A stretch of 64,000 bases of DNA from Sphaerodactylus townsendi (lineage: Eukaryota). Of the stretch, positions 1 to 62,269 are shown piece by piece. Position numbers and translations under genes: made by a program. Below the pieces are notes generated by a model. The model saw only the letters and a list, made by a program, of their open reading frames with translations, did not search any database and had not been told where the DNA came from. The stretch is taken from NCBI RefSeq assembly GCF_021028975.2, contig NC_059427.1, positions 134,106,001 through 134,170,000 on the forward strand, given 5' to 3'. The stretch's first letter is position 1; each line of letters starts with the position of its first letter.

Positions 1-556
1 AGGCTCACTCTTCCAGGATTCAGGTTTCTTCAGCAGAATTCCTCAACAGAGACTCCCTCAACTATATCTGCAGGGTGGCTACCTGGTCAACTCCATCCAC
101 ATTCATAAGGCACTATGCCATTGAAGTGGATTCCAGGAACAGGCAGCTGTAGAAAGAGTGGTGCTACAATCACTTTTCCTCTGATCAGCCCACACCCTCC
201 TACATGGTACGTGAGCTTGCTGTTCTCTCATGTGGGATTGTACAGAAGCCACAGACTTGCCTGTAACGGTTGTTCATTGAGTGGTCTTCTATGCAAGCAC
301 ACATTCCTCCCTGCTGTGGGTTGCTTGGCATCAAAGAGTGAGTCTCCCTCACAGCTGCTGAAGGAGGACTAAGGGAAGAGCGCTCCGTGTGGTTTGGGTA
401 GCAAACAGCCGCTCTGGATGGGAGGGGGAGGAGAACTCCAGCAGAAAGCTCTATAGAGCTTGAGAACTCCTCTCTGCAGCTGACCTGCACATGCCCAGGC
501 CCATGTGTGTCTGCACAGAAGACCTCTCAATGAACAACAATTATAAGTAAGTTCAA
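1..556 (+). mobile_element. DIRS-type tyrosine-recombinase retrotransposon 3' remnant
   Basis: Frame from base 3 reads AHSSR...ICRVATWSTPSTFIRHYAI, the C-terminal motif of DIRS tyrosine recombinases. It is followed by an approximately 50-bp inverted repeat (256-305 vs 503-552), as in DIRS termini. Confidence 0.75.
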
Positions 557-12414: not shown

Positions 12415-13180
12415 TATAGAATTATAGAGTTGGAAGAGACCCCAAGGGCCATCAAGTCCAACCCCATGCAATACAGGAATGCACAATCAAAGCACTCCTG
12501 TCAGATGGCCGTCCAGTCTCTCTTTAAAAACCTCCAAAGAAGGAGACTCCACCACACATCAAGTAGTGCATTCCACTGTTAAACAACCCTTACTGTCAGG
12601 AAGTTTTTCCTGATGTTTAGGTGGAATCTCTTTTCCTTCATCTTGAACCCATTACTCCTGGTCTTAGTCTCTGGAGCAGCAGAAAACAAACTTACTCCCT
12701 CACCACCACGACATCCCTTCAAATATCTAAACATGGCTACCATGTCACCTCTTAACCTTCTCTTCACCAAACTAAAAGTACCCAGCTCCCTAAGTCTCTC
12801 TTCGTAGGGCATGGATTCCAGAGCTTTTACCATTTTGGTTGCCTTCCTCTGGACAGGTTCCAGTTTGTCAATATCCTTCTTGAATGGTGGTGCTCAGAAC
12901 TGTACACAATATTCCAGGTGAGGTCTAATCAATGCAGAATAGAGAGGTACGGTTACATCCTGGACACTATACTCCTATTGATACAGCCCAGAATCGCATT
13001 GGCTTTCTTGGCCGCCGCATCACACTGATGACTCATGTTCAGTTTGTGGTCTACAATGACTCCCAGATCCCTTGCACGTGTAGTGTTGTCAAGTCAGGTG
13101 TCACCCATCCTATAACCGTGCATTTCATTTTTTTCTGCCTAAGTGTACTACCTAACATTTATCTCTGTTGAAATTCATTT
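12415..13180 (-). mobile_element. CR1 LINE 3' portion
   Basis: Minus ORF YEERLRELGTFSLVKRRLRGDMVAMFRYLKG...RKNFLTVRVV, with the CR1 octamer-like tail at the left end. Confidence 0.92.
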
Positions 13181-13182
13181 TG

Positions 13183-14002
13183 GTTGTTGTGGGATTTCTG
13201 GGTCTGGTAAATCTTGTTCCTAATGTTTCGCCTGCATCTGTGGCTGGCATCATCAGAGCTGTATCACAGAGAGAAGTGTGTTACACACTGTGTCCAGTAA
13301 GAAGGGAATGTTTAACAAAACTTTACTACCAGTGCTTAAAAACTCCAGAATCAAAGGACAAGGGCATGCTAGGTTCATGGACAATGAACTCCACCCAGAC
13401 ACAAGATCTGCATTCACTAATACTGTTGCTACTGCAGGGAATGCAAATGTAAATGGACTGAAATCCCCACCTCCTGTACAATGAAGTCAACCACACCTTT
13501 GCATAATAAATTCCACCCAAACACTTACTAATTGATTTCCTACCCTGGGACATGGACAATATGTACGCCACTAAACATTCTCTTCTGTCAGGTGGGAGCC
13601 TGTCTGCAACTGGGAGGGGGAGCGAGGAGTCTGGATGGAAAATTACTTTCTTTTCTGCCTACCTGAAACAAGTAGGGATGGCCAGGCCAGATGGCTGCTT
13701 ATCTCATCCTTTGGCCTTGGAGAACTGTCTCACTATTTCACAGCTTTGCTTTGTAGTTGGGTAGCGTGGGAAGATGGAAGGGGGGATGAGCACTGTGGAA
13801 TTGATATATCGGGGTTTGGGGAAAGACAGTTTAGAATTGGCTTTTCAATTGCGTTCCACTGATGCTTTCCAATAAAGTATTTTGAACCGACGGTTTCAGA
13901 GTCTTGTTTGGTCTCAGATCCAGGACTTGAAACCTTCTCACTGGACACAGTGTGTAACACACTTCTTTCTGTGATACACCTCTGAAGATGCCGCCACAGA
14001 TA
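13183..14002. mobile_element. PLE fragment with inverted termini inside the CR1
   Basis: Minus-strand terminus 13183-13310 (hammerhead motif 13219-13259), then a plus-strand NKTLLPVLKN end of the ORF, 3' region and truncated terminus 13933-14002. Confidence 0.8.
13586..13932 (+). mobile_element. Probable solo LTR nested in the PLE
   Basis: Starts TGTCAGG and ends CTTGAAA (near-inverted ends); AATAAA at 13871; flanked by TCTTC / CCTTC; removing it restores the PLE taaacattc.cttctcactggacac. Confidence 0.6.
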
Positions 14003-30664: not shown

Positions 30665-30814
30665 ATCATAGCTGAACTTAAGACAACCATTTCCTCTCTG
30701 ACAGAGGAAGGCAACCAGCAGCAGCTTGCTGCAGAAAGGCGCCTGCAGGATGTTTTACAAAGGTTTGAAGATGAGAAGCAGCAGCTGATTCGAGATAATG
30801 ACAGAGCAATCAAG
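30665..30814 (+). CDS. CEP112: Internal coding exon of CEP112 (150 bp, phase 0-0), IIAELKTTISSLTEEGNQQQLAAERRLQDVLQRFEDEKQQLIRDNDRAIK
   Basis: Polypyrimidine acceptor tgttttctttttag|ATC and donor AAG|gtaatc; 50 open codons; matches recalled CEP112 IIAELQTTISSLKEENSQQQLAAERRLQDV. Confidence 0.95.
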
Positions 30815-31629
30815 GTAATCTGGGGCTTTGAGTCAATGATGCTACCAGCTGTTTGAGTATAATTAAAAGTTTTGAAAGCATTGGCAGAAGACATATGAAT
30901 GCATATAGCATTCATCTTCTTATAACACTCAGTAGTTCCACTTATTGGATGAACTATGATGCCATGACTGACTGAGAGACAAGACGCCTAGATGAATGGA
31001 GACGGTTTGGGATTTTTTAATCAGGTTTGATCCATTTGCACAAAACCTTTAATGAAACCTGGCGGTAAATTTTAATGTTAATAATTATAATAATAATTTT
31101 ATTTAATACCACAAGGAAGTATCCTGCTGTCTTCCTAGAAATGGTTAAAATATTTTCATGTTGCTGGTATCTGTTTAGTATACTTTTATATACTGACAAG
31201 CACTAATCCCAGTGGAAAGTCTATTTACTTGAAATAACTGAAAAACACTAGCCATTTCATTAATTTCGAAATGCCTTTAATTAAACACAGTTCATGCACA
31301 TCCTTCTTAAGTCCTTGTCTGAATTAGTGAGTTTTGTCCAAGTTGATGAATATGCAGCACACATCTGAAGTAGGATGTACACTAAACACTAAAGATCATC
31401 ACTGAAGGAATCATTATAGTCCCTTAACATTGACAGAGGATTGGCTGCTGCATAATATTGGGCAACACAAATATGATTGTGGAAAACATCCATGGTTGGG
31501 AAATGTTACAAAATAATTTATTTAGGCTTTTTTTTAGCAGGGCCAAGCCATTATGGCACTGTGAACTTCAGTTTTAGAGGTGCTTTATATGGTGAGCTAG
31601 TTTCATTTGACTATTTTATATGTCTGTAT

Positions 31630-31770
31630 GGCTCATTCCGCACATGCAGAATAATGCACTTTCAAACTGCTTTCAATGCTCTTTGAAGCTGTGCGGAATG
31701 GCAAAATCCACTTGCAAACAGTTGTAAAAGTGGTTTGAAAACGCATTATTTTGCATGTGCGGAAGGGGCC
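31630..31770 (+). mobile_element. 141-bp PIF/Harbinger-like MITE, copy 1
   Basis: GGCTCATTCCGCACATGCA...TGCATGTGCGGAAGGGGCC with 3-bp TSD TAT; near-identical copies elsewhere in the window. Confidence 0.88.
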
Positions 31771-31881
31771 TATGTTTGCTTTAACTTACTGATAGGTACC
31801 CTGAGTCTCTAGGGTTGGTTCGGGCCAGAAATATAGACAAATTATGTCAAAATTATTCTAAATCTAAATTATGAAGAGGAG

Positions 31882-32063
31882 TTCAATGTATTGTCGAAAG
31901 CTTTCACAAAAGCTTTCAAATGTTAGTTGTGGGTTTTACATGTGTGTAACAGACTTCACTCTGTGCTACGCCTCTGAAGATGCCAGCCACAGATGCAGGC
32001 GAAACGTTAGGAGCAAGATCTACCAGACCATGGCCACACAGCCTGGAAACCCACAACAACCAA
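31882..32063 (+). mobile_element. Short PLE insertion (inverted stub plus terminal repeat)
   Basis: Flanked by TATGAAGAGGAG (31870-31881) and TATGAGGAGGAG (32064-32075); same terminus as 8428 and 13183 in the opposite orientation. Confidence 0.82.
31971..32011 (+). ncRNA. Minimal type I hammerhead ribozyme motif (PLE-type), core intact
   Basis: CCT-CTGAAGA-T-GCC-agccacagatgca-GGC-GAAAC-GTT^AGG: CUGANGA and GAAA boxes, helix I CCT/AGG, helix II GCC/GGC, loopless palindromic helix III AACGTT. Activity not shown. Confidence 0.72.
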
Positions 32064-32422
32064 TATGAGGAGGAGGTGTTTTTTTTAACTATTGCTTATT
32101 ATAATATGAAAAGGGAGTAGATTTGAAAACTCTTGGACATGACTTCCATAATGATTGGTTTGGGGTTGGATCAGTTAATCGTTATGTCCATACTTGTTTG
32201 TCCCATTGATATCTTTATCCAGGTGATGAGTACGCCCTGAATTTTTCCTATTTTCTCCCTTTATTTGTTTGTCGTTTTTCATTGTGATGTATAGCAATCA
32301 TACTAATTCCAGTATATCTCCTAATGGCTGGGTGGAAGAGATCAATATCATCCTCCCCACGAATAAAGTGTAGCAAATTACATGGGGAAAAAAAGAACAT
32401 GAGCCCTGAAGTTGAGAACAGA

Positions 32423-32563
32423 GGCCCCTTCTCCACATGCAGAATAATGCACTTTCAATCCACTTTCACAATTGTTTGCAAGTGGATTTTGCTATTCCGC
32501 ACAGCTGCAAAATGCATTGAAACAGGATTGAAAGTGCATTATTCTGCATGTGCGGAAGGGGCC
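32423..32563 (-). mobile_element. Harbinger-like MITE, sister subfamily
   Basis: 141 bp; about 35-bp TIRs GGCCCCTT...CACATGCAGAATAATGCACTTTCAATCC; no clean TSD. Confidence 0.82.
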
Positions 32564-33204
32564 TCAAAGGAGCTGCCCTTGTGAACCGTTAGTAATCTGA
32601 GTTTCAAAGACAGAGAAGCATCAACCTTTATTACTAGACATTTTTGCAATTTATACTAGGTGAAATAGTGTGGCATGTAGTGATCTTTTTACTGGCTATT
32701 CTCAGCCAACAGAAAAGGACTATCCAAAACATGTTGTACAACATAGAGAGAGAAAACATATAGAATCCTCTGCACAGCTTCACTTTAATTTCTTTCAGTT
32801 CCCACATCTGAAGCTACTTTATTCTACTTTGTCTTGTATTAAACATTTGCATCTGATAAATGAGATTGTAGCTTACTGAGAATTAATAGTGGCTAGTCCT
32901 CCAGCCTTGTGATTACTTGGTGCTGATTGTTCAGCCTTGTTCCTTCAACTTCCAGTCTTACCAATACACTGATATGATGCACATCTAAAGTCCTTCACAT
33001 AAACACATTCTTTCCGGCAGTTTAGGGATGAGCACATGTTCCCCATTTCATTTCTTTATCGTTCCATGGATCCGCACTGCCTCACATTCTGTTCCAGCTG
33101 GCTTCTGTTAACTAACAGAATTTCTATAATTAATTCTGGAAGTGGAACTTGCACAGTTTGCAGTTCATGTTTTGTTCCTTGTAGGTAACTAAGGCATACG
33201 TTTC

Positions 33205-38354: not shown

Positions 38355-39700
38355 TCTGGGCTGCTGTGTGGTTTCTGGGCTGTATGGCCGTGTTCTAGCA
38401 GCATTCTCTCCTGACATTTCACCTGCATCTGTGGCTGGCATCTTCAGAGGATCTGATAGTAGGAAAGGAAAGCAAGTGGAGTATATATACCTGTGAGTAA
38501 AGGTCAATAAGTGAGGGCATCTGAATAGGAGTGGCCTGGCAAGTGAGTAACAATGAAGTGTAGCATGTGAGTAACAATGGAGATAGCAAGGTCAATTGGT
38601 GAGGCATCTGAATAGAAGTAGTCTGGCCTTTGTTCTCTTTGATTGTTTATTGTCTATAATCATCCTGTATTTGTGTGGAGCTGATTAGCCACTGTCTTGA
38701 CTCTAATGTTTTTCAAAACTGGCAGCCAAATTCTGTTCATTTTCATGGTTTCTTCCTTTCTGTTGAAATTGTCCATGTGCTTGTGGATTTCAATGGGGAT
38801 CATTAGAAAAGGAATTGATAATAAAACTGCAAAGATTGTCATGCCCTTATATAAAGCAGTGGTGCGACCGCACTTGGAGTACTGTGTCCAGTTCTGGTCG
38901 CCGCATCTCAAACAGGATATTGAGGAGATAGAAAAAGTGCAGAGAAGGGCAACAAGGATGATTGAGGGACTGGAGCACCTTCCCTATGAGGAGAGGCTGC
39001 AGCGTTTGGGACTCTTTAGTTTGGAGAGGAGGCGGCTGAGGGGGGATATGATTGAAGTCTACAAAATTATGCATGGGGTAGAAAATGTTGACAGAGAGAC
39101 ATTTTTCTCTCTTTCTCACAATACTAGAACCAGGGGACATTCATTGAAAATGCTGGGGGGGAGAATTAGGACTAATAAAAGGAAACACTTCTTCACGCAA
39201 CGTGTGATTGGTGTTTGGAATATGCTGCCACAGGAGGTGGTGATGGCCACTAACCTGGATAGCTTTAAAGGGGGCTTGGACAGATTTATGGAGGAGAAGT
39301 TGATTTATGGCTACCAATCTTGATCCTCTTTGATCTGAGATTGCAAATGCCTTAACAGACCAGGTGATCAGGAGCAACAGCCGCAGAAGGCCATTGCGTT
39401 CACATCCTACATGTGAGCTCCCAAAGGCACCTGGTGGGCCACTGCGAGTAGCAGAGAGCTGGACTAGATGGACTTTGGTCTGATCCAGCTGGCTTGTTCT
39501 TATGTTCTTATGTTCTTAATGGCTTCTCTGTGTAGTCTGACATAGTGGTTGTCAGAGTGGTCCAGAATTTCTGTGTTTTCAAATAATATTCTGTGTTCAG
39601 GTTGGTTTATTATGTGTTCCCCTATTGCTGATTTTTCTGGCTGAAATAGTCTGCAGTGCCTTTCATGTTCTTTGATTCGTGTCTGAGTGCTGCGTTTGGT
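38355..39700 (-). mobile_element. PLE 3' part (GIY-YIG C-terminus plus terminal repeat with hammerhead motif at 38410-38450), split by a CR1
   Basis: TKRSTQTRIKEHERHCRL...SAIGEH...RLHREAI | EIHKHMDNFNRKE..MNRIWLPVLKN rejoins across the CR1. Confidence 0.88.
38797..39517 (+). mobile_element. Young 5'-truncated CR1 LINE
   Basis: Uninterrupted ORF2 end (LYKAVVRPHLEYCVQFWSP...LERRRLRGDMIEVYK...FKGGLDRFM), (TTCTTATG)n tail, AATGG repeated at 38792-38796 and 39518-39522. Confidence 0.95.
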
Positions 39701-58385: not shown

Positions 58386-60837
58386 CCTCAAGTATTATGG
58401 GATAAGATTTAGCTCCTCTATTTATCTCTCCATTTTTTCCCTTTTAAAATTCCCAGTGATATGGGGAAGTAGGAACCATACATTCCACCCTTTCACTGGT
58501 CCCACCACCTTCTTTGAAACTGTAATGGAGTATTTTAGCTAATGAGCATGCCAGCCTTATAAACAAAATACCCAGAAGCTTTAAAATGGTTCCAAAGGAA
58601 GGCCCCCATGTAACTGAAGTTAATTACACCGAAACCCCATTGAAATCTCTCTTATAAATGTAACTAGCTTTAGTTGAATCGGGCTTGAAATATGTAAATT
58701 GTTGCAGTTTCACATAAGCTTGAACCCCATTCTTAACAACCCTAATTATACAAATTTATATAGTAACAATATAGTTTCCTGGAATGGATAGGCAAGAAGA
58801 GGGGAAATCTGAAGCACTCGGGCAATCAAAGAAGCTCAAACATATTGTCAGTTATTTATACTATGTGTACAGGGGACTATGTTAATCTGAAAAAAAAGTT
58901 GCTGGTTATATTTGGAGATCAAGGGCTAAAACGGTTCCTTCAGGAAAAAACAGTACTGCACATGTTTTATGGAGGACTTCCATTATGTGACATGTTGTGT
59001 GTCTAATATATAACAAGATGGAATTGGGCAGATCTGAAGTTCTTTTTAGTGTTGATTAAAGTTTTTGGCATCAGCATAGGTTGAAGCTTTATAGCTTTTA
59101 ATACTTTTAAGTTAACTTCTGGCATTACTTCAAAACAATTATGCAAGATCTATCACAAATACTTCTCTTATCTTATCTGAATAGCAATTTTATCCTGTTA
59201 ATGATTTAAGCCTACAATATTCTGTCATTGTCTAAGAAAGAAGGGATTCTGTTGAATCTTTGTGCCACAAGTTCTTTTAGATACTTCTAGTGTATTCAGA
59301 ATTTTGCTACTAAACTATAAGCTATAAAGTGAATTTCCTCCTATGTTTCTTGGCTTGCAATGCAAGATGGAGTGATTCAACCATGCTATTCAGGTTCAAA
59401 ACAGATAAGACCTTGGAGATTCGTGATGGGATCTTCTCAGCAGTTTTTGAGCTGAATTGCAACTTATGAGGATCAGGACCGCAAGGGGAAATAGGATAGT
59501 TAACTATTTCATTCCCAGGCAGTTATAGAAATCAACACCACCATATTCCCACACACTATTAAAACTCTTTAATGAAGAGATAGGAAAATGGTGGGCACTC
59601 ATCTTTTTAAAAATCTAATAAGCTGTTCAATAATCATGACTTCAGAAATGCAAGGCACAATTACCTCTGAAGATGAGTTATTCATCTGCAGCATTGTATT
59701 TGGAGTGGCTGAATGCTCCATATCTAATGGATAGGCAGGGTGGAATTACACCTCCCTCTTGGAGGAAGGCATAGCTAAGCAGCAAGTTGTGCAGAAGTGC
59801 ATCAGGCACCTTGATTTTACAAGTGCCTAGTATTAATTTTTTTTCCTGCTGACACATTTTTCATGGTGAACAGTTTGGAGATTAGATATTTACAAGTGGA
59901 GACCTGCAGGAGCAGCTATCCCACTTCCTCCATCGTTGCTTTCTCCTGTCTCCCCCTTCTTTTCTCATTCTTTCACTCTTTCTCCCTCATGCCACTCCTT
60001 TTCTTACTCTCTATCTCTCTTCCATGCCTGTCATTTTCTCTCTGTTTCTGCCCCCATCACTCTTTCTCTCTCTTTCTGCCATCCTATCCTATCACTTTAT
60101 CTTTATGCCCCTCCCCCTCACCATCTGCTTTCTTTCCCCTTCCCATAACAGTGGTAGTGGCAGCAGCTCTTCTGGAACCCAATGGATGTTGAATTGTAGC
60201 AAGCAGTCAGGTTGAGTCATGCAAGTGGGTTGTTTCAAGTCCCCCAAACTGTGCCTTCCTCAGACTTCACCACAACATCTCCTGGAATTTCCCAACCTGG
60301 AGCTGCTAACCCTAGGAATGGCTCAGTGAGTCCTCTTTTAAAGACCAAAATAGCTCTGGAAAAGGCCCTGCCACCCCTTCCCCCTGCCTTTTACTCACAG
60401 AAACTGAAGCATGGAATCCTGTGGCTGCCTAACAACAGCCACTGGGGAAATCCATTGCTTAAAGCTACAGGTGCACCTTTTATCATTGTGGGTTTTTTAA
60501 AAGCCACCTCCCTCATTTACTTTTATAGATTTCACCTCTTTTTTTGCAAATCTGGGACCCTTTTCAGGCTTCTAGAAACATCTGTCTTGCCCCTTCACAT
60601 CTGTAGTCACTGGACTGAACTATCAAAACACTGTTAGAATATAAGATGAAGTAAAAACGATTATAAGTTTTAGAAAGGAAGCTCAGTGAAAGGGAGGTTT
60701 GTTGAATCTCATTTGCAAAGGCTCAGATATTGTTGACAATTATTTATTACTTCTACTACTAAATGTTGCACTCATTCAACATGGTTTGCTGATGATATTG
60801 TGAAACTTAATTTCTTCTTTGTACTGATGTTTTTCAG

Positions 60838-60918
60838 GGTTTGCAAGATGACTATTGCAGTCAGGTTCGCTTGACGGAAAAGAAATTGCAGCACAGAGAT
60901 TTTGAGACACAGGAACAG
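60838..60918 (+). CDS. CEP112: Internal coding exon of CEP112 (81 bp, phase 0-0), GLQDDYCSQVRLTEKKLQHRDFETQEQ
   Basis: Acceptor gatgtttttcag|GGT preceded by branch-like tactgat; donor CAG|gtatca; resembles recalled CEP112 VLQDELENRSNQVRCAEKKLQHKELESQEQ. Confidence 0.88.
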
Positions 60919-62269
60919 GTATCAAGTTATTTCCTGATAGGTTTCTGCTCATGGGCAAGAAAGGTATATATATATTTTTTTAAAAAAAACTTTCTTGCTT
61001 GAAGGCAAAACCACAACTTCTGCTGAAAACGCAGGTGTACTTTACATATATAATAAAAAGATTAAACTTCTTTACCCCGTGGGCAAATTAATCGGCAATG
61101 ACTTTCTCAAACTGATAGTTTAGGGGTTAAATGATGCACTGACTTTTAAATACCAATATTGCTTGTAATTTCATTTTTCAAGTATTTACTGTGGCAGGAA
61201 ATATCAAGAATGATAATGCAGTTTAACTGAATACAGTTTTCAAGTTGACATAAAGTAGTACTTGGCTATATAACTTATATCTTTGGCCTCTTATCTGATT
61301 ATGTATTAAGTCATTTGAAAAGTTGGAAACGGGTTGACAGCACTTAATACACATTCAAAAAATAAACTGTGATAGGATGAATGTTTTGAATAATGAAAAG
61401 AGAGCTTTAGATGATTTGGGTTTCTAAGTCCTGGCGAATTTTACTGTAGATTTACAGGTAATTAACTGAAAATCTTAAGCAACTGCTAACTGTTCAGTTT
61501 ATTTAAAGATCCAAAGGGGGAAGGGCTTATGATTTAAGAGAAATACTGTCATGTGCCCCACAAGAACAATAAGACCCTTCTTAAACAAACTTCAGATCCC
61601 TGTTGTTTGGCCATAGATTAGCATAGGATGTTAGTAAGTTGCAAACCCACTTATGAGGTTTTTAAATGGTGGCTTGATGCCAAAATATTCATTACATTTT
61701 TACATTATCCATTTGATATAGTGATATCAAGAATCGTTGTAATCAAGTAGTCGCATTATAAGTACTATGAATGAGTCAGTACTGTCGCTATTCAGCTTTT
61801 AACCCACGCACACACAAGAATCCTTCTTCTGTATTACATGTTCCCCTTTTATCCTTGTGTTGTCTTGTTCAACAGTGCTAGGCAACACTGACGAATAGCA
61901 AAAAGTGTCTGACCCGTTCAGAACCTGGGTAGCCCTCTCACAGTCTTAAATCAGTCACAGCAAGCCACTGCTCATGTATCCAGTCTTCCTGCCTTCCTCT
62001 ATCACCACAATTGGTGGTATTATGGTCCGCAGCAACAGAGCAGAGCAATGGAAGTCGTGGGTGACACTTCACCGGTGCCCCTGGCCAGCACTTTCACAGT
62101 GGGACGCAGACTGTTCCTCCCTTGAGGGTCATGGCACTGTGGTATTGCCACCTGCCTGCACTTCAGCACTCCGTACTACTGTTTCCTGAGATGAAACAAG
62201 GTACAAAGAAGAGGGCAGCAGTGGGCGTGGATTACCCACCTTGAATGGCAGAACAGAGTTCTACCAGAC

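What the first reader, a model, noticed from the sequence alone, without database searches (positions are those of the whole stretch)
31870..32075. Intact minimal hammerhead ribozyme on the sense strand of the CEP112 pre-mRNA
Seen: a 182-bp TSD-flanked, non-coding PLE insertion about 1.1 kb downstream of the 150-bp exon carries CCU-CUGAAGA-U-GCC-loop-GGC-GAAAC-GUU^AGG, with both core boxes and both CpGs intact. Predicted cleavage is after 32008. Known: PLE terminal repeats carry minimal type I hammerheads whose palindromic helix III (here AACGUU) requires dimerisation. Inference: such short ribozyme-bearing units may be a non-autonomous retrozyme-like family. This copy could cut the nascent 30-kb intron only when paired with a second copy in trans, which would couple host intron processing to PLE expression. 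It is the only fully intact copy in the window. An extra U after the CUGANGA box and short helices may make it slow.
Basis: partly seen in the sequence, partly recalled or inferred. Interest (0 to 1): 0.7.

Follow-up and report, generated by a model that had tools for sequence, protein, structure and literature searches.

The report
Penelope retrotransposon stub in CEP112 intron
This is a real minimal self-cutting-RNA motif carried into a gecko CEP112 intron by a 182-base stub of a known lizard jumping gene; the same core, or a one-letter variant of it, occurs about 12,000 times in the genome, the stub appears to be missing in a related species, and it likely does not cut the host RNA.

Summary
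The motif, the 12-bp TSD, the sense orientation and the 30-kb CEP112 intron are confirmed. The insert is not one short unit. It is a head-to-head Poseidon (Penelope-like) stub: an inverted 60-bp tail arm plus a 122-bp arm holding the hammerhead and the ORF's first 84 nt. The 'extra U' is the U of the element's start codon and is family-wide. The exact 41-nt core occurs 2,791 times and a sister variant 9,340 times, so 0.43 copies per 64 kb are expected. Sibling copies run upstream into a GIY-YIG ORF. Their 3' ends fall at two sites matching the Anolis PAc tail and reverse-transcription start pattern, and 38 of 42 inverted inserts have one end of each kind. Their 5' ends pile up at a likely transcription start. 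The stubs are therefore likely dead by-products of an autonomous element, not retrozymes. Against cutting CEP112 RNA: no intact partner in the gene, an active dimer predicted at +5 to +8 kcal/mol, a GUU site, a truncated PLE-protein binding region, and an apparently empty site in a relative. Cleavage and nascent RNA were not testable. The scan reported such stubs before in this and other lizard genomes.

The parts
30665..30814 (+). CEP112 coding exon (150 bp; aa 796-845 of P0004); the following intron of about 30 kb holds the insertion
31870..31881 (+). left target-site duplication (12 bp)
   Evidence: perfect match to the right copy in organism C
31882..31941 (-). inverted PLE arm: element positions about +56 to +121 (ATG A = +1), ending at the long, tailed end; its middle has become a perfect 9-bp hairpin
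31942..32063 (+). direct PLE arm: element positions -38 to +84 (pLTR tip, hammerhead, first 28 codons of the PLE ORF), ending at the short end
31971..32011 (+). minimal type I hammerhead: helix I CCU/AGG, core CUGAAGA, U insertion, helix II, GAAA, self-complementary ACGU (32004-07), predicted cut after U32008
   Evidence: layout as in PMC4209133 and PMC11167929
31980..31982 (+). PLE start codon overlapping A9, the inserted U and G10.1; the predicted cut lies 26 nt after it, as reported for Anolis PAc
   Evidence: PMC11167929
32064..32075 (+). right target-site duplication (one substitution at 32069 in this genome)

Best explanation
The insert is a head-to-head stub of a Poseidon-type Penelope-like retrotransposon that likely arose as a dead-on-arrival by-product of the element's normal insertion, and its hammerhead is likely a silent passenger in the CEP112 intron. 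Shown: the anatomy, the 12-bp TSD, about 12,000 exact cores, siblings that run into a GIY-YIG ORF, two fixed 3' ends near +84 and +118, one end of each kind in most inverted inserts, and both arms sharing subfamily letters. Inferred, about 0.55: the PLE protein nicked both target strands about 12 bp apart and extended both on RNA from one source element, one from each internal start site, usually running to near the RNA's 5' end (a predicted start at about -48 in this subfamily and about -13 in the sister subfamily); the cDNA ends were then joined. Here one arm stopped at -38 and the other at +56. Such stubs would lack the upstream promoter and most of the region that PAc protein needs, so they would not spread further. 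Inferred, about 0.9: the motif is not cut at a meaningful rate in CEP112 pre-mRNA, because it has no loop 3, needs a second intact copy, and is predicted to misfold alone.
For: Copy number: 2,791 exact cores plus 9,340 of the GUC variant; 0.43 expected per 64 kb and about 1.9 per 277-kb CEP112 gene, 1 seen. Parent: copies sharing the upstream flank carry ORF pieces, and 1 of 4 tested hits Pfam GIY-YIG at E 9.4e-6. Ends in 86 independent subfamily-A copies: 44 at +78..90, 32 at +108..123, 10 other; 58 have an inverted arm; 38 of 42 classifiable pairs are short+long (P 5.7e-8 against 0.5); subfamily B 29 of 30. PAc starts reverse transcription at two sites bounding the tail, one at 111-118 nt into the ORF, and cuts and extends both strands (PMC11167929). 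5' ends: A, 65 of 86 within -60..-12, with 28 in the -50..-40 bin and 5 in the next; B, 42 of 59 at -26 or closer, 1 at -39, none from -40 to -64, 16 longer, with a TATA box starting at -43. Arms agree at 222 of 249 diagnostic cells against a shuffled mean of 65% (maximum 75% in 2,000 shuffles). Silence: helix I forms in 3-5% of the monomer ensemble; the active dimer is +4.8, +7.0 and +8.4 kcal/mol against two monomers; no other fully intact sense copy lies in the gene. In vitro, the PAc hammerhead shows no cleavage without PAc protein, is dispensable for insertion, and the template needs the first 172 ORF nt, against 84 here. Metazoan minimal hammerheads are inactive as monomers and weak as dimers (PMC4209133). 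A contig of organism E spans window 31627-32086 (460 letters) with 120 letters, which fits loss of this insert plus one TSD (194) and of a neighbouring repeat of about 146 bp.
Against: No cleavage was measured. Nearest-neighbour energies ignore Mg2+, tertiary contacts and chaperones, and PAc protein does activate its hammerhead in vitro. Core-bearing family RNA is abundant in organism C (depth about 2,900 at the core in run X21), so partners exist in bulk. This copy has two private changes (C31966, G32013) that could pair and lengthen helix I; no other copy has both, and its 70-nt dimer was the least unfavourable tested. The 3' junction is seen in organisms B and C, but with 30 element-side letters, one short of the tool's bridging rule. 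The empty site rests on one contig and arithmetic. The preferred 5' ends also coincide with short palindromes, so fold-back self-priming (PMC3846280) explains the arms as well as a transcription start does. Samples came only from the first part of contig C1 and were chosen for an exact core. 4 of 89 inverted arms end within +27..+31 of the cut site, a weak hint that a few templates were cut.
Confidence: 0.85

Rival explanations
1. The intact sense copy is a conditional cut site: a second PLE RNA, or the PLE protein, completes the dimer in trans and the nascent CEP112 intron is cleaved when PLEs are expressed.
For: All core residues are intact and sense to the gene. Family RNA with mostly intact cores is abundant in organism C (83-90% of reads keep each CpG base). 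PAc protein switches on its hammerhead in vitro. A private C-G pair could extend helix I.
Against: No intact cis partner. The active dimer is predicted at +5 to +8 kcal/mol, and the core is predicted paired with the cleavage strand. The copy lacks ORF nt 85-172, which PAc needs. No RNA-seq ends at the PAc cut site in Anolis. The insertion appears lineage-specific. GUU sites are slower than GUC (recalled; one search gave no usable source).
Confidence: 0.06
2. The short units form a self-propagating non-autonomous, retrozyme-like family with its own defined ends.
For: Both ends of short copies cluster. One tandem array of about 11 units of about 109 bp, 3 with exact cores, exists at G000:C1:4702501-4703950. 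A preprint argues that animal retrozymes derive from PLE pLTRs (10.64898/2026.07.22.740005).
Against: The window copy is single, not tandem. Total insert lengths run from 110 to 855 bp and 58 of 86 are head-to-head. Units do not begin or end at the cut site. Ends match the autonomous element's priming sites. 21 of 86 extend upstream, and other copies reach the ORF. Only 1 of the 27 independent loci among L031-L060 was a long tandem array.
Confidence: 0.07
3. Same inert stub, different origin: one cDNA primed at the tail end folds back on a short palindrome near its 3' end and copies itself, making the inverted arm.
For: Palindromes lie at the preferred junctions in both subfamilies (sequences). 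Arms share subfamily letters. Self-priming was proposed for PLE inverted junctions (PMC3846280). It also predicts long+short pairs.
Against: Single-arm inserts also end at +84. Many pairs have unequal 5' ends or filler at the joint, including this copy (-38 against +56). PAc extends both strands in vitro.
Confidence: 0.3

Closest known systems
PAc / Poseidon_Ac of Anolis carolinensis, Penelope/Poseidon clade (Frangieh et al. 2024, PMC11167929; main text parts 1-2 of 4 read, supplements not seen)
   Same: The hammerhead overlaps the ORF start, the cut lies 26 nt after the start codon, copy ends fall at two sites bounding a tail (long end at about +111-118 there, +108-123 here), and there is a C-terminal GIY-YIG domain.
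   Different: This copy is a 182-bp ORF-less stub from a gecko subfamily with a GUU triplet. No sequence alignment to PAc was made, because its sequence was not held here.
[quoted passage not shown]
   Same: [quoted passage not shown]
   Different: Helix I is 3 bp here (4-5 bp in the Schistosoma families described), and helix II is 3+2 bp with an internal mismatch (7-8 bp there).
Inverted, tailed, TSD-flanked insertions of EN+ PLEs (PMC8557442 and PMC3846280; passages read)
   Same: 5' truncation, an adjacent inverted 5'-truncated copy, a 30-40-bp tail at one end only, a TSD of similar size, and a pLTR that includes the first codons and TATA/Inr-like motifs.
   Different: Here both arms are extreme truncations. 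The short+long rule (38 of 42 and 29 of 30) and the 5' pile-ups are counted here.
Non-LTR retrozymes (PMC7229834, passages; bioRxiv 10.64898/2026.07.22.740005, parts 1-3 of 5)
   Same: Short, non-coding, type I hammerhead, related to PLE pLTRs.
   Different: Retrozymes are head-to-tail tandem repeats whose RNA is cut to unit length and circularised. This is a single head-to-head insert with a minimal rather than canonical hammerhead and ends unrelated to the cut site.

Membership tests
PLE minimal type I hammerhead | CUGANGA and GAAA boxes, G10.1-C11.1, helix II, NUH triplet, helix I closing both ends | tested here: met
   box consensus recalled, layout from PMC4209133
PLE minimal type I hammerhead | no helix III or loop 3; palindromic 15.2-16.2; extra nucleotide between 9 and 10.1 | tested here: met
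   ACGU at 32004-07 and T at 31981
PLE minimal type I hammerhead | self-cleavage as a dimer | not testable with these tools
   folding predicts the active dimer at +4.8 to +8.4 kcal/mol; no assay possible
Penelope/Poseidon EN+ PLE | ORF with C-terminal GIY-YIG endonuclease upstream of the pLTR in family members | tested here: met
   L073 ORF piece hits PF01541 at E 9.4e-6; 1 of 4 pieces tested. In L073 the piece lies on the strand opposite the query match, as an inverted arm; L074 and L076 carry like residues in line with the unit but gave no Pfam hit
Penelope/Poseidon EN+ PLE | telomerase-like RT domain and placement in the Poseidon clade | not tested
   no full-length copy was recovered and no tree was built; the clade name rests on the shared hammerhead, start-codon and tail layout with PAc
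Penelope/Poseidon EN+ PLE | 5' truncation, inverted partner, optional 30-40-bp tail, TSD | tested here: met
   58 of 86 inverted; two 3' ends about 34 bp apart; perfect TSD of 8-15 bp in 41 of 86
Non-LTR retrozyme | two or more head-to-tail units each with a complete hammerhead | tested here: not met
   single head-to-head insert; met only by the separate array L037-L039 / L243
Non-LTR retrozyme | unit-length linear and circular RNAs bounded by the cut site | tested here: inconclusive
   no end pile-up in 3 unstranded RNA runs of organism C, which could not show such RNAs well; genomic ends near the cut site in 4 of 89 arms
Host-exapted intronic ribozyme | conserved at the orthologous site across species | tested here: not met
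   site appears empty in organism E, about 5% diverged; 3' junction present in B and C

The most novel reading that the evidence does not exclude
The thousands of intact, sense-strand Poseidon hammerheads in gecko introns, this CEP112 copy among them, are latent cut sites that PLE RNA or PLE protein switches on in trans, so a burst of PLE expression nicks host pre-mRNAs genome-wide. This copy's private helix I extension would make it one of the more reactive.
Probability: 0.05. Interest if true: 0.75.

Novelty: new member of a known kind. Interest (0 to 1): 0.15.

Why it matters
As a single locus it matters little: it is one of about 12,000 exact cores and appears lineage-specific. The family statistics are the useful part. 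One short and one long end in 38 of 42 and 29 of 30 inverted inserts, arms from one source element, and 5' ends at a predicted transcription start give a testable model for how PLEs make their inverted, one-tailed insertions, a step the literature calls undefined (PMC8557442). If trans-activated cleavage of host introns were real, it would be a new way for a transposon to affect host RNA.

Tried and rejected
Rfam scan of the window: 0 matches at gathering score. The loose core pattern gave 5 window matches against 1.31 expected; only 2 belong to this family. The 61-nt fold was no more stable than shuffles (z 0.72). The run search returned no RNA holder listed. Three raw RNA runs of organism C (one study, unstranded; 6, 19 and 24 in 100 of each run read) covered the CEP112 exon mainly in X21 and gave zero depth in all unique intron bins. 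They say nothing on a nascent-RNA step at 32008; family reads ran through that place with no end pile-up, which such libraries would hardly show. X8 did not cover the site usefully. Intronic strand bias: CEP112 holds 19 family fragments, mostly in opposed pairs, and one intact core, too few to test; no genome annotation was available. A first 5'-end map was discarded because its references contained inverted arms, and was redone. Dropped before counting: L036 (segmental duplicate), L038 and L039 (same array), L047 (partner arm), L212 (subfamily-A flanks); partner rows of head-to-head pairs were not fetched. No full-length PLE was recovered; the longest shared upstream stretch was about 1.2 kb. 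The sigma-70 scan is irrelevant to a vertebrate. Lunse et al. 2016 on PLE hammerhead dimers was not held and is known only through PMC6765202 passages. A mis-recalled id returned an unrelated paper, unused. The search 'penelope' + 'twin priming' listed 3 papers, none about PLE insertion by title or abstract start; one search found none; one search listed one paper, not read. These searches do not show that the origin model is unpublished. Supplements of PMC11167929 (insertion ends, RNA-seq ends) were not opened and may bear on the end positions.

Full report
Observation. The motif is at the stated coordinates: CCT (31971-73), CTGAAGA (31974-80), T (31981), GCC...GGC (31982-84 and 31998-32000), GAAAC (32001-05), GTT (32006-08) and AGG (32009-11). 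A 12-bp duplication with one mismatch (31870-81, 32064-75) flanks 182 bp. The upstream exon 30665-30814 translates to 50 residues identical to a gecko CEP112 record. All CEP112 exon matches lie on + from G000:C3:133924702 to 134202073, and the next exon is at window about 60829-60927. The sense orientation and the 30-kb intron are therefore right. Rfam reports nothing at its gathering scores. The exact 41-nt core has 2,791 genome matches against 0 for the reversed control, and the one-letter GUC variant has 9,340. That is one exact core per 150 kb, 0.43 per window and about 1.9 per CEP112 gene. One is seen in the gene; 2 of 22 family fragments in 444 kb are fully intact. Being the only intact copy in the window's readable bases is unremarkable.

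Anatomy. The insert is two arms head to head. Numbering from the A of the ATG at 31980, the direct arm (31942-32063) covers about -38 to +84 and the inverted arm (31882-31941) about +56 to +121. In the Anolis Poseidon element PAc the ORF starts at stem II, the cut is 26 nt after the start codon, and reverse transcription starts internally at two sites that bound the tail, one of them 111-118 nt into the ORF (PMC11167929, parts 1-2 of 4 read). The same geometry holds here, so the 'extra U' is the U of AUG. An extra base at that place is also a general trait of PLE minimal hammerheads (PMC4209133, parts 1-2 of 4). By canonical numbering (recalled), dimer helix III is ACGU, not AACGUU.

Family. 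Twenty loci found with the upstream flank of the window's 13-kb copy share upstream sequence to variable depths and carry ORF pieces. One of four pieces tested hits Pfam GIY-YIG (E 9.4e-6). I mapped ends in 86 independent copies of the 2,791 (position-ordered rows from contig C1; 4 duplicates dropped). The 3' ends are 44 at +78..90, 32 at +108..123 and 10 elsewhere. 58 have an inverted arm, 41 have a perfect TSD of 8-15 bp, and total length is 110-855 bp. Of 42 inverted inserts with both ends classifiable, 38 have one short and one long end (P 5.7e-8); in 59 of the 9,340 sister-subfamily copies the count is 29 of 30. The window insert is such a short+long pair. A tail at only one end of an inverted PLE insert is described qualitatively (PMC8557442 and PMC3846280, passages). 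Arms of one insert agree at 222 of 249 diagnostic cells against 65% when shuffled (maximum 75%), so both come from one source element.

5' ends. In subfamily A, 65 of 86 direct arms stop within -60..-12 (bins of ten from -20: 7, 18, 28, 5) and 21 run further, to -627; 29 of 58 inverted arms stop at -36..-52 and 5 go beyond. An initiator-like motif sits at -48 (consensus recalled). From this I predicted, before fetching the data, a pile-up near -13 in subfamily B, 30 nt below its TATA box at -43. Found: 42 of 59 direct arms at -26 or closer, 1 at -39, none from -40 to -64, and 16 longer; 21 of 38 inverted arms at -8..-24 and 4 beyond. Direct arms were selected to contain the core, which crowds them near -9; inverted arms were not so selected. 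PLE transcription starts within the pLTR in Drosophila (PMC2377424; abstract, introduction and discussion read). The inferred origin is copying from an internal start site to the RNA's front end on both nicked strands. A rival is fold-back at short palindromes that lie at the same places (PMC3846280). Only 4 of 89 inverted arms end within +27..+31, around the cut site, so most templates were uncut; a small excess is not excluded.

Retrozyme question. Non-LTR retrozymes are head-to-tail repeats processed to unit-length and circular RNAs (PMC7229834, passages; the preprint's working definition needs two consecutive complete units). This insert fails the tandem test and its ends are not the cut site. 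PAc needs the first 172 ORF nt of its template, whereas stubs end at +84 or +118 and mostly lack the upstream TATA region, so they are likely dead on arrival (inference from the Anolis element). One tandem array of about 11 units with 3 exact cores exists elsewhere and would meet the preprint's definition if its assembly is right.

Can it cut CEP112 RNA? Alone, helix I forms in 3-5% of the predicted ensemble; the core box pairs with the cleavage strand instead, inside a long stem made by the inverted arm. The active dimer is predicted at +4.8, +7.0 and +8.4 kcal/mol against two monomers for 70, 47 and 182 nt, and other copies give +5.3 to +9.0; such models omit Mg2+, tertiary contacts and proteins. 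The only other sense copy in the gene with both boxes lies 198 kb upstream and has a broken helix I arm. In print, a Schistosoma minimal hammerhead was inactive as a monomer and weak as a dimer. The PAc hammerhead needed PAc protein, was dispensable for insertion, and left no RNA-seq ends at its cut site. Against my reading: family RNA is plentiful in organism C and mostly keeps the CpG bases, and this copy alone carries C31966 with G32013, which could extend helix I. The RNA runs had no intronic coverage, so the nascent-RNA test could not be made.

Age. Contigs of organisms B and C (about 0.6% and 1.4% different in the upstream flank) start 30 letters inside the element and cross the right TSD, which is perfect in C; this is one letter short of the tool's bridging rule. 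One contig of organism E (about 5% different) spans 460 window letters with 120, which matches absence of this insert plus one TSD and of a neighbouring repeat of about 146 bp. The insertion therefore appears recent and lineage-specific, with no sign of long-term retention.

Verdict. A real minimal hammerhead of a known kind in an ordinary Poseidon-type stub, likely inert. Earlier scan notes on this and other lizard genomes reached the same reading. I had reached it before the look-up; those notes are not independent support, and two of them prompted the cut-site count. Interest 0.15.

Noticed in passing
L243:4501-5960 (G000:C1:4702501-4703960); L037-L039: Head-to-tail array of about 11 units of about 109 bp of the same PLE tip, 3 with exact hammerhead cores; later units are degraded with indels. 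A candidate non-LTR retrozyme-type array, or an assembly artefact.
   Followed up: partly
window 31966 and 32013: Two private substitutions are complementary and could add a 4-bp extension to helix I; no other genome copy within one mismatch of the 55-nt stretch has both. Probably chance.
   Followed up: partly
window 31894-31917: The tail's natural imperfect stem-loop has become a perfect 9-bp inverted repeat in this copy, as expected from template-switch correction of a quasi-palindrome (inferred).
   Followed up: partly
window 13175-14001: Head-to-head PLE insert whose + arm extends about 300 bp upstream towards the ORF end and is interrupted by an unrelated insertion of about 350 bp (about 13590-13935).
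   Followed up: partly
window 31627-31771 and about 32422-32564: Two copies of a very abundant repeat of about 145 bp with inverted ends (MITE-like) flank the site; the first also appears absent in organism E.
   Followed up: no
window 38359-38520 (-): Sister subfamily B copy (GUC triplet, TATA box upstream) with both core CpGs decayed; subfamily B has 9,340 exact cores genome-wide.
   Followed up: yes
L035 and L036 (G000:C1:4.56 and 4.58 Mb): The same PLE insertion with shared flanks in opposite orientation 20 kb apart, a local inverted segmental duplication.
   Followed up: no
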